Below the pieces are notes generated by a model. It ran no database searches, was not told the DNA's origin, and saw only the letters and a program-made list of their open reading frames with translations. This document shows positions 6,743-38,680 of a stretch of 64,000 nucleotides of DNA, one piece after another. Source of the DNA: Eledone cirrhosa (taxonomy: Eukaryota). The position numbers and the translations under genes were made by a program. The stretch covers positions 18,166,001 through 18,230,000 of the forward strand of contig OZ024759.1 of assembly GCA_964016885.1 (NCBI GenBank), in the 5' to 3' direction. The stretch's first letter is position 1. The number at the start of each line of letters is the position of its first letter.

Positions 6743-6808
6743 TATTTCATTATACATATTTCAGGGATACCATATTAAAAATATGGCATGCCTTCGTCAG
6801 ATAAAATA
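6743..6808 (-). ncRNA. Type I hammerhead ribozyme (inverted copy of 6899-6964)
   Basis: Reverse complement of the same fold with intact CTGACGA and GAAA. Confidence 0.78.
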
Positions 6809-6898
6809 CAATATATAAACAGTTAGCCGGCCTCCTATCTTAATGGTCGCTTATATGTATGGTACGTCAAAATTATTTATAAAACTGTTTATATATTG

Positions 6899-6964
6899 TA
6901 TTTTATCTGACGAAGGCATGCCATATTTTTAATATGGTATTCCTGAAATATGTATAATGAAATA
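6899..6964 (+). ncRNA. Type I hammerhead ribozyme (minimal stem III)
   Basis: tattttat-CTGACGA-AGGCATGCCATATT(ttt)AATATGGTATTCCT-GAAATATGTATA-atgaaata. Stem I has 8 bp including one G-U. Confidence 0.8.
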
Positions 6965-15986: not shown

Positions 15987-16052
15987 TATTCCATTATATA
16001 TATTTCAGGGATATCATATTAAAAATATGGTATGCCCTCTTCAGATAAAATA
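15987..16052 (-). ncRNA. Type I hammerhead ribozyme (P1)
   Basis: Reverse complement reads tattttat-CTGAAGA-GGGCATACCATATT(ttt)AATATGATATCCCT-GAAATATATATA-atggaata. Confidence 0.75.
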
Positions 16053-16163
16053 CAATATATAAACAGTTTTATAAATAAATTTGACTACCATAACAACTTT
16101 TTAAATGGAAGTTGTAAAATTCTAAGGTATGTCAAATTTATTTATAAAACTGTTTATATATTG

Positions 16164-16229
16164 TATTTTATCTGAAGAGGGCATACCATATTTTTAATAT
16201 GATATCCCTGAAATATATTTAATGAAATA
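16164..16229 (+). ncRNA. Type I hammerhead ribozyme (P1)
   Basis: tattttat-CTGAAGA-stem II-GAAATATATTTA-atgaaata, with one stem III mismatch. Confidence 0.68.
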
Positions 16230-18358: not shown

Positions 18359-18803
18359 GTTATAGTTCAGTTGAAGCATTGTGTAATGAGGTATAAACGT
18401 TTGAATTTGTAAAGCCAAACAATGCAGGTCTAGACATAGAATTAAAAAAATACAAATGCAAAAGATATTGTTGACAATTAGTCAACCTTAGATTTATTTA
18501 AATGTGCTTATTTAAATGTCATAATGACTTGGCAAGCTATTTAGGACACTAATCTTAACTCTTTGATATTAGAGTTAGAACAGATACTCTATACCATTTC
18601 CTTTCAGCATGACTTGGCAAGCTATTTAGAACACTGGTTTAACCACTTTACTTCCCTCCGAAGAAGAGATATTATCTCGAAAATTAAGGACATTTAAATA
18701 AATCTAAGGTAAAAGACTAATTGTCAACAATATCTTTTGCTTTTGCATTTTTTTTATTCTATGTCCATACCTGCATTGTTTGACTTTACAAATTCAAACG
18801 TTT
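18359..18803 (-). mobile_element. Penelope-like fold-back insertion with degenerate hammerhead (family P5)
   Basis: Inverted arms at about 18395-18505 and 18690-18803. cct-CCGAAGA-AGAGAT(att)ATCTC-GAAAATTA-agg lies at 18655-18689. A diverged relative is at about 36885-37110. Confidence 0.6.
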
Positions 18804-18815
18804 TTTTATATATAT

Positions 18816-19469
18816 AATTGAATAAATTCAATAAACACATGTATGTTTATATTAGTGTTCATCTCTCTTGTTTATTCAATTATATTGTACGACTCGGAAA
18901 AGCTTTTCTCTTAGAGCTATTTAATTGTAAGAGACTACCCTGAGTTCTTAACTCAATATATATTTGTCGGCTCCATCATGTAGAGCTAATTTTTAATGTC
19001 CTGACAGCCAGGCTGCTATTTTTAGTGGCAGGGAATTTCGAGACAAGCTGGGTTCCAAATGACACGTGCGATAATTCATATCGTACACAATTCATTCTCT
19101 AATATTTTTAGAAGTGAAAGGATCACTAATTTCTCAACAACTACTGAGGAGCAGAGAAACGTGAGAACTTCACTTAAGTGGTTGCGAAACAGTCTGCAAC
19201 ACTGTCTAGTTGTTACCAGGCATTTTGCCCAATATAGGTCTGTTATTTTTCTTAATTTTTCTTAATTTAATATTTAAAGTTAAGGATAACAAACTATATT
19301 ACTGTAGTTAGTATTTTTTCACTCTAGCAAATTTGGTCCTTACAATTCGAACACATGTATGTTTATATTAGTGTTCATCTCTCTTGTTTATTCAATTATA
19401 TTGTACGGCTCGGAAAAGCTTTTTTCTTAGAGCTATTTAATTGTAAGAGACTACCCTGAGTTTTTAACT

Positions 19470-19476
<7 letters not shown>
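18816..19476 (+). mobile_element. Non-coding partial-tandem Penelope-like pLTR / retrozyme-like element
   Basis: 127-bp direct repeats at 18834-18960 and 19350-19476 (period 516), an internal hammerhead, an 11-nt inverted 5' piece (aattgaataaa) and (TA)n flanks. Confidence 0.75.
19136..19214 (+). ncRNA. Type I hammerhead ribozyme, canonical core
   Basis: Stem I aacaacta/tagttgtt (8 bp), CTGAGGA, stem II closed by GCA/TGC, GAAA, stem III ACAGT/ACTGT with a 7-nt loop, and a GTC triplet. Predicted cleavage is after C19206. Confidence 0.88.
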
Positions 19477-19599: not shown

Positions 19600-19603
<4 letters not shown>

Positions 19604-19810
19604 TTTTTCATTCGCACCGTTTCCTTTTGCTATATGTCTCTCCACCACTCCCCTACACACCTTTTGAACTCTGTTCCCACACACTTCTCACCTGAAGAAG
19701 GGCTTATGCCCGAAACGTCGTCCCCCACCTACCCCCCACTCTCCTGAGCGTGAATTTAATAAACATTTATTGTACTGCCTCTCTGTTCTGTCCCTGTTCA
19801 ATTTTTCATT
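19600..19810 (+). mobile_element. Penelope-like pLTR fragment with minimal hammerhead (family P3)
   Basis: CTGAAGA-AGGGC(ttat)GCCC-GAAACGTC at 19692-19719, AATAAA at 19758, TA-flanked. Stem I is only 2 bp. Confidence 0.68.
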
Positions 19811-19836
19811 ATATATATATATATATATATATATAT

Positions 19837-20049: not shown

Positions 20050-20865
20050 ACATATGAGTTGATTAAATTACAGGTGATAAACGTGAGTTTTTAACTCCGT
20101 TTTTTAATTTGATATATATATGTATATATATATATATTAGGAATGTAACACTTCATCATACAAATGAAACAGTTCTAAGCTTATAGAAATTATTTCGGTA
20201 TAACATAAACAATGCCTATACTTTACCAGTGCATTGAGTACTTTTTTCATCTCTGTTTACTCCCCGACACAACTAAGGAATTTACATTTTACATATCATC
20301 ATCATTATCATCACCGTTTAATATCCATCTTTCCATGCTACCTTAGGGCAGAGCAAGATTTAAACTATATGTTGATATGCTCCAGGAAGTAAGTAACCAA
20401 TGTATGAAATTTGAACAAAATCAGATGGAAACTGTGGAAATGCATTGACTACATATGGACAGACAGACATTTTCGTTTTTATATATCTCTATATATATAT
20501 AGATGACAATTGTTTTGATATTGATTTGATCAGGGTTCAATTATTGCCTTCTATTTCTTTATTATTTTTATTTTATATCTTATATTATACATTTTTATTT
20601 TATATCTTACCCATCTGTCTGTCCTTTTATCTACTCATCTCCTTACCCCCACACCCCCAAATAAGTGTGTATAAAAGAATCGCTTGACTTCTTTTAACAG
20701 ATAGAATACGTTCTGCGTCTATGAACGCATGTCTGATGAGATGTTGATGCATAGTCGGGCCCTGAAAATTTTGATTGAACCCTGAGCTGATCGATATTAA
20801 AATAATTGTCATATAGTTATAAAGTTTATATATGGTGGAACTTTGATTTCATTCCTGCTTACTAG

Positions 20866-26084: not shown

Positions 26085-27770
26085 ACTATCTGCTGATCAT
26101 CAGATCTGACCAAGGAAACTATGTTTCCCTTGGTCTTTCCATTGCTGATACTGTCTACCTGTCATCAGATCAGACCAAGGAAACTATGTTTCCCTTGGTC
26201 TTTCCATTGCTGATACTGTCTACCTGTCATCAGATCAGACCAAGGAAAGTATGTTTCCATTGGTCTTTTCATTGCTAACACTATCTGCTAATTATCAGAT
26301 CAGACCAAGGAAACTATGTTTCCCTTGGACTTTCCATTGATGATACTGTCTACCTGTCATCAGATCAGACCAAGGAAAGTGTGTTTCCATTGGTCTTTTC
26401 ATTGCTAACACTATCTGCTAATTATCAGATCAGACCAAGGAAACTATGTTTCCCTTGGACTTTCCATTGATGATACTGTCTACCTGTCATCAGATCAGAC
26501 CAAGGAAAGTATGTTTCCCTTGGACTTTCCATTGCTGACACTATCTGCTAATTATCAGATCAGACCAAGGAAAGTATGTTTCCCTTGGACTTTCCATTGA
26601 TGATACTGTCATCAGATCAGACCAAGGAAACAATGTTTTCATTGGTCTTTCCATTGCTGACACTATCTGCTAATTATCAGAGATCAGACCAAGAAACTAT
26701 GCTTCCATTGGTCTTTCCATTGATGATACTGTCTACCTGTCATCAGATCAGACCAAGGAAACAATGTTTTCATTGGTCTTTCCATTGCTGACAATATCTG
26801 CTAATTATCAGATCAGACCAAGGAAAGTATGTTTCCCTTGGACTTTCCATTGCTGATACTGTCTACCTGTCATCAGATCAGACCAAGGAAACAATGTTTT
26901 CATTGGTCTTTCCATTGCTGATACTGTCTACCTGTCATCAGATCAGACCAAGGAAACAATGTTTTCATTGGACTTTCCATTGCTGATACTGTCTACCTGT
27001 CATCAGATCAGACCAAGGAAACAAGGTTTTCATTTGTCTTTCCATTGCTGACACTATCTGCTAATTATCAGATCAGACCAAGGCAACAATGCTTCCATTG
27101 GTCTTTCCATTGATGATACTGTCTACCTGTCATCAGATCAGACCAAGGAAACTATGTTTCCCTTGGACTTTCCATTGATGATACTGTCTACCTGTCATCA
27201 GATCAGACCAAGGAAACTATGTTTCCCTTGGACTTTCCATTGATGATACTGTCTACCTGTCATCAGATCAGACCAAGGAAACTATGTTTCCATTGGTCTT
27301 TCTATTGCTGACACTATCTGCTAATTATCAGATCCGACCAAGGAAAGTATGTTTCCCCTTGGTCTTTCCATTGCTGACACTATCTACCTGTCGTCAGTTC
27401 TGACCAAGGAAACTATGTTTCCCTTGGTTTTTCTATTGCTGATATTGTCTGCTGGTCATCATATCAGACCAAGGAAACTGTTTCCATTGGTCTTTCTATT
27501 GCTGACACTATCTGCTAATTATCAGATCAGACCAAGGAAAGTATGTTTCCCTTGGTCTTTCCATTGCTGACACTATCTACCTGTCGTCATATCAGACCAA
27601 GCAAACAATGTTTCCCTTGGTTTTTCTATTGCTGATATTGTCTGCTGGTCATCATATCAGACCAAGGAAACTGTTTCCATTGGTTTTTCCATTTCTAATA
27701 CTATCTGCTGTTAATCAGATCAAACCAAGGAAACAATGCTTCCATTGGTCTTTCCATTGCTGATATTATA
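26085..27770. repeat. ~62-63-bp minisatellite (about 27 units) derived from a SINE body
   Basis: Unit cagatcagaccaaggaaactatgtttcccttggtctttccattgctgatactgtctacctgtcat. The array is contiguous with a SINE head at 27780-27915 (-). Confidence 0.9.
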
Positions 27771-29691: not shown

Positions 29692-29812
29692 GGTTGACAG
29701 TAAGGGCAGCATCTGTGACCAGAAAGGTGTATTTCGAATCAACTGTGTTGACTGCCTTGACCGCACAAATGTTGTACAAACAGCCATTGCCAGGGTTGTG
29801 ATGGAGACTCAG
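29692..29812 (+). CDS. INPP5F: Internal coding exon of a Sac-domain phosphoinositide phosphatase, Sac2/INPP5F type (catalytic motif exon)
   Basis: Acceptor ctcttttcag and donor CAG|gtaagc. The first base completes a split codon (probably TG|G = W), then [40 protein letters not shown]. This contains the Sac signature RxNCxDCLDRTN. The flanks (VD..G.IC.Q.G.FR and [12 protein letters not shown]) match my recollection of metazoan INPP5F better than SAC1, FIG4 or synaptojanin. Confidence 0.92.
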
Positions 29813-36409: not shown

Positions 36410-36733
36410 AGTATTAATAAAATAGATGTTCTTTTGATCAATTACATTTTATTATATATATTTCGAATGTAAAACAGTACGTCCTCATCAGACAAAATAT
36501 AATGATACATGACATACCCTGAGATGTTAAATGGTTATATTTTGTCTGATGAGGACGTACTGTTGTACATCCAAAACATGTATAATAAAATGTAATTGAT
36601 CAAAAGAACATCTATTTTATTAATACTTATATTAATAACTCCTGAAAATTATTTTACCGTTGAGTGCTTCCAATCTACTGTAAAAATCATTCTTTGACAT
36701 AATCATCGAATATTGTTTAACATTTTAATACTT
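36410..36733 (+). mobile_element. Penelope-like insertion with inverted duplicate and paired hammerheads (family P4)
   Basis: Inverted arms at about 36410-36502 and 36535-36627, TA-flanked. Confidence 0.7.
36442..36502 (-). ncRNA. Type I hammerhead ribozyme (P4)
   Basis: Reverse complement ttatattttgt-CTGATGA-GGACGTAC(tgtt)TTACATTC-GAAATATATATA-ataaaatgtaa, with an 11-bp stem I. The + copy at 36535-36595 has GAAA changed to AAAA. Confidence 0.75.
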
Positions 36734-38479: not shown

Positions 38480-38680
38480 TAAGTTTATCCCAGGTTCAAT
38501 CAGGGGTAACCACAGCAAGTAAGGTACTGAATACAAAGCAGAGTATAAATATTTAATATAGAAAAGGCTTAAACAGGACTAGAACTGTTTCATTCGTGAG
38601 AAATCATCAGGGCTTCCTGATGAATTCTCCCGAATGAAACAGTTCTAGTCCCGTAGAAGCCTTTTTTATATTAAAAATAT
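38480..38680 (-). mobile_element. Penelope-like fold-back insertion with back-to-back hammerhead cores
   Basis: Arms at about 38550-38611 and 38616-38678. The + arm reads CTGATGA-ATTC(tccc)GAAT-GAAACAGTTCTAGTC and the - arm has the same core. Stem I is poorly formed. Confidence 0.62.

What the first reader, a model, noticed from the sequence alone, without database searches (positions are those of the whole stretch)
18816..19476. Canonical hammerhead ribozyme inside a 516-bp partial-tandem non-coding unit (retrozyme-like)
Seen: a complete type I fold at 19136-19214 (8-bp stem I, CTGAGGA, GAAA, 5-bp stem III, GTC) between 127-bp direct repeats, inserted in (TA)n, with no credible ORF. Known: Penelope-like pLTRs and metazoan non-LTR retrozymes are tandem units carrying type I hammerheads, and retrozymes give circular RNAs. 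PLE hammerheads usually have a minimal stem III, whereas this one could fold as a monomer and has a large stem II insert. Inference: this is a copy of a ~516-nt circularisable retrozyme or pLTR family, and it lies sense to the host exon.
Basis: partly seen in the sequence, partly recalled or inferred. Interest (0 to 1): 0.85.

Follow-up and report, generated by a model that had tools for sequence, protein, structure and literature searches.

The report
Penelope-parasite repeat with clamped hammerhead
This is one copy of an abundant non-coding jumping repeat whose ends carry the signature of Penelope-type retrotransposons, and whose predicted self-cutting hammerhead RNA has an unusually long extra helix that likely both supports and restrains cutting.

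Summary
A type I hammerhead lies at 19136-19214, inside a 516-bp unit followed by a 127-bp partial repeat that ends in (TA)n. It belongs to a non-coding superfamily (units about 495-560 bp, at least ten sequence variants, about 67-90% alike, at least 923 hammerhead-bearing copies). All 8 stem I pairs show compensatory changes. Copies end at two fixed sites 75-82 bp apart, and 5' inversions use the other site (11 of 12; 17 of 17). This is the Penelope-like (PLE) 'tail' signature, so a PLE enzyme likely moves them; no coding parent was found. The new feature is a 14-22-bp pairing of the large stem II loop with the 5' flank (17 of 21 independently picked relatives). Its inner part is a pseudoknot of known type. 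Its outer part likely cannot coexist with stem II and may act as a brake. Rfam misses this ribozyme. The window copy has one hammerhead, so it cannot release a unit-length circle alone, and it is predicted to misfold. Cleavage and circles are untested. It lies sense within a SAC-phosphatase gene, probably by chance. Verdict: a new variant of animal retrozymes.

The parts
18812..18826 (-). 15-nt inverted 5' piece, the reverse complement of unit positions 38-52 (the short fixed end), next to a short TA run
   Evidence: Direct reading; the same arrangement with longer inverted pieces in relatives
18834..19349 (+). One full non-coding unit, 516 bp (family majority length 520 bp), 34% GC
   Evidence: 2.1% from the column majority of 30 copies
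19112..19118 (+). 5' strand of the outer flank helix P3, predicted to pair with 19169-19175
   Evidence: present in most relatives; covariation not established on an alignment
19123..19126 (+). 5' strand of the middle flank helix P2, predicted to pair with 19161-19164
   Evidence: the equivalent 9-bp segment is 91.6% paired with 3 double changes in 16 sequences
19130..19135 (+). 5' strand of the inner pseudoknot P1, predicted to pair with loop II at 19154-19159
   Evidence: 2 of 3 counted pairs change on both sides; CTC/GAG, CTG/CAG and CAG/CTG variants
19136..19214 (+). Type I hammerhead: stem I 19136-19143/19207-19214, core 19144-19150, stem II 19151-19153/19183-19185, GAAA 19186-19189, stem III 19189-19193/19201-19205, predicted cut after 19206
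   Evidence: Direct reading; covariation; cleavage not tested
19154..19182 (+). 29-nt loop II: 22 nt partner of the 5' flank plus a 7-nt linker (10 nt in most subfamily-A copies; this copy lacks 3 nt)
19350..19401 (+). Start of the second (partial) unit, up to the short fixed 3' end at unit position 52
   Evidence: 10 of 27 subfamily-A insertions end here; loose ends at the equivalent place in public contigs
19402..19476 (+). 75-nt 'tail' up to the long fixed 3' end (unit position 127-130), likely the second reverse-transcription start
   Evidence: 14 of 27 insertions end here; 1698 exact matches to a tail motif against 0 control; interpretation after PMC11167929
19472..19518 (.). (TA)n target run into which the 3' end merges
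   Evidence: TA runs beside most fixed ends
29692..29812 (+). Context only: exon with the CX5R(T) motif of a SAC-domain phosphoinositide phosphatase, the likely host gene
   Evidence: AG/GT bounded; E 2e-6 to yeast Sac1; upstream Syja_N exons on + of the same contig

Best explanation
This is a single-hammerhead copy of a non-coding, about 520-bp tandem-forming repeat family that likely borrows the reverse transcriptase and GIY-YIG endonuclease of a Penelope-like retrotransposon to insert into (TA)n runs. Shown: family, copy structure, two fixed 3' ends, alternating ends in 5' inversions, TA targets, covarying hammerhead stems and flank pairing. Inferred steps: (1) A tandem master locus is transcribed. 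(2) The PLE protein binds near the tail, nicks AT-rich DNA and starts reverse transcription at two internal sites 75-82 nt apart; priming on both DNA strands gives head-to-head insertions with one short and one long end. (3) The template usually carries an intact cut site, so it is either uncut multimeric RNA or a cut and religated circle. (4) The hammerhead can cut multimers to unit length, with the inner flank helix as the usual stem I-stem II brace. (5) The outer flank helix forms first during transcription and must open before stem II can close, so cutting is likely slow or protein-assisted. The window copy is likely a dead-end insertion in an intron.
For: Fixed ends: 24 of 27 subfamily-A insertions and 28 of 29 subfamily-D insertions. 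Opposite ends when both sides reach a fixed end: 11 of 12 and 17 of 17. This matches the PLE tail, partial tandem and 5' inversion in PMC8557442 (passages) and the two internal starts in PMC11167929 (parts 1-2 of 4). The unit closes head to tail without an ORF in variants A, C, D and G. The genome holds 150 scored GIY-YIG matches and long RT-bearing ORFs with a C-terminal GIY-YIG-type region (3 of 3 tested match RVT_1, 1 of 3 also GIY-YIG). Hammerhead under past selection: 14 of 19 pairs change on both sides, 92.5% of cells paired, slid controls 25-41%. Flank duplex beats loop shuffles (<=6 of 300) in 17 of 21 related hammerheads picked on loop II alone. Read-through of the cut site in 16 of 29 insertions picked on the 3' end. 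Units fold as circles better than shuffles (z -3.8, -4.6, -4.3 on 30 shuffles).
Against: No coding element shares the unit or its tail: none among 53 GIY-YIG-bearing loci, and tail alignments to 4 coding families were no better than shuffles (28-300 of 300). No Rfam hammerhead model matches. The core departs from consensus in whole variants: U4A in 19 of the first 30 pattern hits and GGAA for GAAA in 13 of 61 subfamily-A/B rows. Flank-loop duplex energies are not specific to cognate pairs: for the whole duplex the best partner was the own variant or a close sister in only 5 of 11 rows. The outer helix gave no covariation signal at the register tried (52% paired). The tail is about twice the published 30-40 bp. 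Cleavage and expression were not observed.
Confidence: 0.8

Rival explanations
1. Classical retrozyme cycle: multimers are cut efficiently, monomers are ligated to about 520-nt circles, and the circle is the template that the PLE enzyme copies more than once round. This is a variant of the best explanation that fixes the template as a circle.
For: Insertions are mostly under 1.5 units and up to about 2.6 units long, with fixed 3' ends. Most read through an intact cut site. Units are highly self-paired as circles, with the hammerhead unfolded. Coral, mussel and axolotl retrozymes give circles (PMC7229834, passages).
Against: An uncut linear multimer explains the same insertions, and uncut RNA was the main substrate of the one PLE tested in vitro (PMC11167929). 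In the vertebrate preprint 8 of 9 retrozyme dimers did not cleave.
Confidence: 0.45
2. The copies are only 5'-truncated pseudo-LTRs of a coding Penelope-like element that was not sampled.
For: All insertion signatures are those of PLEs, and depth of public contigs is about ten times higher at the 3' end than over the hammerhead. Only 53 of at least 150 GIY-YIG places were examined.
Against: In four variants the unit joins head to tail with no ORF between hammerheads (spacing 491-560 bp). No examined copy runs upstream into coding sequence. The sampled coding families have minimal hammerheads and unrelated ends.
Confidence: 0.07
3. The hammerhead is a weakened relic, and selection now keeps the fold as a binding or packaging signal for the PLE protein rather than for cutting.
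For: U4A core in the abundant C/E variants; stem II of only 2-3 bp; few 5' ends at the cut site (3 of 202 within -3..+5, 3.4 expected by chance); cleavage was dispensable for PLE insertion in vitro.
Against: The core layout, GAAA, the GUC triplet and all three stems are kept over about 30% divergence. The C3-G8 pair changes together to U3-A8 in variant G, a known functional covariation (PMC3088659 section 8). All 3 starts near the cut fall at offset 0 or +1.
Confidence: 0.15
4. This particular copy has been recruited to regulate its host phosphatase gene by cutting the pre-mRNA.
For: It lies sense between exons of a SAC-domain gene and its core is intact.
Against: It is one of about a thousand or more dispersed copies, 2.1% from the family majority, with private changes predicted to favour a competing hairpin. 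No orthologous conservation could be examined.
Confidence: 0.03

Closest known systems
Animal non-LTR retrozymes (Cervera and de la Pena 2020, PMC7229834, passages seen; Li, Clavereau and Pollet 2026, bioRxiv 10.64898/2026.07.22.740005, parts 1-3 of 5 read)
   Same: Non-coding, low-GC, tandem-forming units with one type I hammerhead each; dimers and trimers; highly self-paired; co-exist with PLEs and are proposed to be their non-autonomous derivatives.
   Different: Unit 495-560 bp (170-400 nt in the 2020 paper, within the 51-972 bp of the 2026 preprint). Mostly dispersed near-monomers with explicit PLE marks (two fixed ends, alternating inversions, TA target) that the passages read do not describe. 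Hammerhead with a 26-36-nt loop II paired to the 5' flank. No pLTR homology to a coding element found. Circles not shown.
Penelope-like elements, EN+ clades Neptune/Naiad, and non-autonomous PLEs such as MRC1 (Craig et al. 2021, PMC8557442, passages; Frangieh et al. 2024, PMC11167929, parts 1-2 of 4)
   Same: Partial tandems, inverted 5'-truncated piece, tail at one end only, (TA)n bias, hammerhead upstream of two internal 3' ends.
   Different: No ORF. Tail 75-82 bp instead of 30-40 bp. Full stem III of 5-6 bp (or a large branched one in variants D and G) instead of the minimal palindromic one of metazoan PLE hammerheads (PMC4209133, part 1 of 4).
Pseudoknot-braced hammerheads (Perreault et al. 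2011, PMC3088659, passages and section 8)
   Same: A helix joining loop II to sequence next to stem I; about 40% of hammerheads are predicted to use one.
   Different: The examples in the passages read are 4-6 bp. Here the pairing runs 14-22 bp in up to three segments, with only 2-15 nt left to reach stem II.

Membership tests
Type I hammerhead ribozyme | CUGANGA and GAAA core, NUH cut site, three stems in type I order | tested here: met
   Direct reading; 10 variants
Type I hammerhead ribozyme | Compensatory changes in the stems | tested here: met
   Stem I 8 of 8, stem II 2 of 3, stem III 2 of 5 pairs
Type I hammerhead ribozyme | Match to an Rfam hammerhead model | tested here: not met
   likely because of the long loop II
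Type I hammerhead ribozyme | Site-specific self-cleavage | not testable with these tools
   Needs in vitro transcription
Animal non-LTR retrozyme | Short non-coding low-GC unit, no ORF | tested here: met
   516 bp, 34% GC, longest frame 79 aa
Animal non-LTR retrozyme | Head-to-tail units each with a hammerhead (family level) | tested here: met
   L002, L017, L027, L050; D and G dimers
Animal non-LTR retrozyme | At least two consecutive hammerheads in this copy (the 'active' criterion of the 2026 preprint) | tested here: not met
   The window copy has one; it is a solo copy
Animal non-LTR retrozyme | Accumulates as unit-length linear and circular RNA | not testable with these tools
   No RNA holder listed
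PLE-mobilised non-autonomous element | Two fixed 3' ends (tail), present at one end of an insertion | tested here: met
   24 of 27 and 28 of 29 at fixed ends; opposite ends in 11 of 12 and 17 of 17
PLE-mobilised non-autonomous element | Partial tandem, 5' truncation and inverted 5' piece | tested here: met
PLE-mobilised non-autonomous element | Insertion bias to microsatellite (TA)n | tested here: met
   no genome-wide background was computed
PLE-mobilised non-autonomous element | 3' end or pLTR homologous to an autonomous PLE | tested here: inconclusive
   None in 53 GIY-YIG loci or against 4 coding tails; sampling incomplete
Autonomous PLE | ORF with RT and GIY-YIG endonuclease | tested here: not met
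Type-SGC (non-circularly permuted) hammerhead | Core blocks in non-circular order | tested here: not met
   Order is the ordinary type I order; compared with passages of PMC10085705

The most novel reading that the evidence does not exclude
The family carries a self-clamping hammerhead. A 14-22-bp helix between the 5' flank and loop II forms first and presents stem I, the CUGANGA core and stem II in an 18-nt loop. With as few as 2-5 nt of linker, the 3' half cannot close the ribozyme in cis until the outer helix opens. Cutting would then be switched on by a protein, or completed in trans by the 3' half of a neighbouring unit. That would be a second way to make a dimer-dependent hammerhead, and an answer to how retrozyme RNA stays uncut long enough to be copied.
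Probability: 0.3. Interest if true: 0.65.

Novelty: new variant of a known kind. Interest (0 to 1): 0.42.

Why it matters
The enzyme that moves animal retrozymes has been argued from co-occurrence and pLTR similarity. Here the copies themselves carry the PLE two-start signature, and young variants (D, 95-99% alike) give ready templates for an in vitro PLE assay. The ribozyme architecture is missed by Rfam, so such families are undercounted. The long flank helix is a concrete, mutable candidate for the block that PMC7229834 says must keep hammerheads in animal circles from cutting. The class of element is already known, and the window copy itself is probably inert.

Tried and rejected
Rfam: no hammerhead model hit. 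Parent search: 30 top GIY-YIG loci, 3 long-ORF loci and 20 further GIY-YIG places. Matches to the unit beside them (L063, L081, L088, L191, L198, L207, L208) were read as separate nested insertions, because they are inverted or set off by TA runs; I inspected L063, L081 and L088 base by base and the others from BLAST coordinates only. A partial tail resemblance to one Neptune-like family was not significant. Sequencing runs: no RNA holder listed; the four runs laid are DNA or unlabelled, so the 516-nt 'goes back' joint only reflects genomic tandems. Cross-variant duplex energies did not single out cognate pairs. The outer-helix pair count failed because the alignment register shifts between variants (52% paired at the register named, 76% one column on). 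5' ends at the cut site: 3 of 202, not enriched over a 9-nt window; sets A, D and G were picked for carrying the hammerhead and are biased against such ends. Two of the 20 loci fetched (L231, L232) were unrelated and were left out of the 17-of-21 count. Nested folding programs cannot model the pseudoknot, so their low stem probabilities with the flank present are not evidence of inactivity. Literature searches showed no paper describing this family or a flank helix of this length; most hits were seen as listings only, subscription papers and Repbase/Dfam were not searchable, and supplements were not read.

Full report
Observation. Two direct repeats, 98% identical, lie 516 bp apart. The longest frame inside the element is 79 aa and the two longest frames have no convincing Pfam match. 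Rfam finds no hammerhead in the window. The element merges into (TA)n at its 3' end; at its 5' end 18812-18826 is a 15-nt inverted piece of the element.

Family. The genome (G000, 3.0 Gb) gave 2655 candidates for the element, of which 40 were scored, at 90-100% identity. A 23-nt core pattern has 121 exact matches and 0 for the reversed control. Thirty near-complete copies differ from their column majority by a median of 3.2%, the window copy by 2.1%. Diverged relatives turned up beside unrelated loci and were followed. They form at least ten sequence variants with units of about 495-560 bp, about 67-90% alike. Two hammerhead patterns match 871 and 923 places and a tail motif 1698 places, each with 0 controls; the first two sets overlap and cannot be summed. 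Variant D is young, with copies 95-99% alike.

How the copies insert. In subfamily A, 30 pattern-picked loci reduce to 27 insertions after dropping 3 duplicates. Of these, 14 end at unit position 118-145 and 10 at position 40-57; where both sides reach a fixed end, 11 of 12 use opposite ends. In variant D, 30 loci give 29 insertions: 14 end at position 139-140, 14 at 56-62, and 17 of 17 inversions that reach a fixed end use the other one (counted from its table). Most ends run into TA. The window copy follows the rule: long end at 3', short end inverted at 5'. This is the partial tandem, 5' inversion and one-sided tail described for Penelope-like elements (PMC8557442, passages). The tail was shown in vitro to be the stretch between two internal reverse-transcription starts (PMC11167929, parts 1-2 of 4). 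The tail here is 75-82 bp, longer than the 30-40 bp reported. That a PLE enzyme made these insertions is inference, but a strong one.

Partner. The genome has 150 scored GIY-YIG matches out of 10597 candidates. Many have a CxxxxCxxC linker of the Neptune/Nematis type and TA-merged double ends, and three long ORFs match RVT_1. None of 53 loci examined continues into this unit on the coding strand, and tail alignments to four coding families are no better than shuffles. The partner is not identified; a Neptune-type element is the likeliest by target preference, which is inference.

The ribozyme. Across 10 sequences from different variants, 14 of 19 pairs change on both sides, including all 8 of stem I; 92.5% of cells are paired, against 25-41% for slid controls. 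Related sequences can beat the shuffle control without structure, so the slid control and the full turnover of stem I carry the weight. Core variants exist: U3-A8 in variant G, a known covariation (PMC3088659 section 8), and U4A in 19 of the first 30 pattern hits, which may lower activity.

The flank helix. Loop II is complementary to the 24-27 nt upstream of stem I. In the window this gives three segments: 19130-19135 with 19154-19159, 19123-19126 with 19161-19164, and 19112-19118 with 19169-19175. In 11 representatives the predicted duplex is 17-22 bp and beats loop shuffles in 10 (<=2 of 500; the eleventh 26 of 500), but some of these were found with a pattern that fixed the outer segment. 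As an independent test I fetched 20 loci picked on loop II alone; 2 were unrelated, and 17 of the 21 hammerheads in the other 18 show a 14-22-bp duplex at <=6 of 300 shuffles. One more was marginal (16 of 300) and the 3 failures have a truncated or altered flank. On an alignment of 16 sequences the 9-bp middle segment is 91.6% paired with 3 double changes. The outer segment could not be scored because the register shifts, and duplex energies are not specific to cognate pairs. A 4-6-bp pseudoknot at this place is a known brace (PMC3088659, passages). What is unusual is the length, and the 2-15-nt linker left between the duplex and stem II. From recalled helix geometry (about 2.8 A per pair, under 7 A per single-stranded base), 18-20 bp cannot be spanned by 2-5 nt, so the outer segment and stem II likely exclude each other in cis. 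Nested folding predicts the flank hairpin in nascent RNA with probability 0.6-0.95. I read the outer segment as a likely brake; this is untested.

Template. Among 29 variant-C insertions picked on the 3' end (30 loci, 1 duplicate), 16 run through the cut site and none starts at it. Over four sets, 3 of 202 5' starts lie within -3..+5 of the cut, all at 0 or +1, against 3.4 expected in that window; three of the four sets are biased against such starts. So the copied RNA mostly carried an intact site: uncut multimer or religated circle. Units fold as circles better than shuffles (z -3.8 to -4.6, 30 shuffles each), and the hammerhead is not formed in the circular fold of the window unit. Head-to-tail hammerheads occur in 4 of 52 distinct subfamily-A places. 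No RNA data were available, so circles remain open.

This copy. It has one hammerhead and cannot release a unit by double cleavage. It lacks 3 nt of the linker and has G at 19196 where 59 of 61 rows have C. Without the flank, stems II and III have nested probabilities of 0.0 here, 0.15-0.19 in a typical A copy and 0.75-0.86 in L158 and L245. It lies on the + strand between Syja_N exons upstream on the same contig and a catalytic SAC-phosphatase exon at 29692-29812. The gene model is inferred from colinear exons. Nothing points to a host role.

Comparison and novelty. The class is known: animal non-LTR retrozymes (PMC7229834, passages), recently argued to be non-autonomous PLE derivatives (bioRxiv 10.64898/2026.07.22.740005, parts 1-3 of 5; supplements not seen). 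It works like a non-autonomous PLE and meets the DNA-level retrozyme features at family level; expression, cleavage and circles could not be tested. Eight literature searches showed no description of this family or of so long a flank helix, within the limits of that library. Earlier unchecked notes of this scan report similar PLE-marked hammerhead repeats in the same genome and call it octopus-like; I did not test the taxon, and these notes are not independent support. Verdict: new variant of a known kind, interest 0.42.

Noticed in passing
window 19602-19812: A second, unrelated TA-flanked insert right after the finding, with a minimal hammerhead core at 19692-19720 (+): short stem II and a palindromic stem III region, like PLE pLTR hammerheads.
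   Followed up: no
window 6759-6948 and 16003-16213: Two inverted pairs of a CTGANGA...GAAA motif with a long hairpin between; probably another TA-inserted PLE-type family, possibly the reordered hammerhead of earlier notes.
   Followed up: no
window 38588-38639, 36461-36491, 20733-20767: Further hammerhead-core-like motifs, one as an inverted pair.
   Followed up: no
window 18395-18803: Element with 89-bp inverted arms, 93% complementary, directly upstream of the finding; MITE-like.
   Followed up: no
window 29692-29812: Catalytic exon of a SAC-domain phosphoinositide phosphatase whose upstream exons spread over about 750 kb of the contig; INPP5F/Sac2 by recall, not tested.
   Followed up: partly
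L186:3809-6622 (-), L187:988-3519, L188:275-3562: Long open frames of Neptune-like PLEs (RT plus C-terminal GIY-YIG region); L186 and L187 have minimal hammerheads with altered cores and double TA-merged ends.
   Followed up: partly
L122:1565-1721, L162:1498-1665, L063:151-315: Variants D and G of the family carry a large branched stem III of about 60-75 nt in place of the 5-bp hairpin.
   Followed up: partly
L231 and L232: Two loci with CTGANGAGCA...TGCGAAAC around a different 43-nt loop, unrelated to this unit; possibly another large-loop hammerhead family.
   Followed up: no
window 26124-27397: Tandem array of about 65-bp units containing CTGATGA on the minus strand; no hammerhead stems checked.
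   Followed up: no
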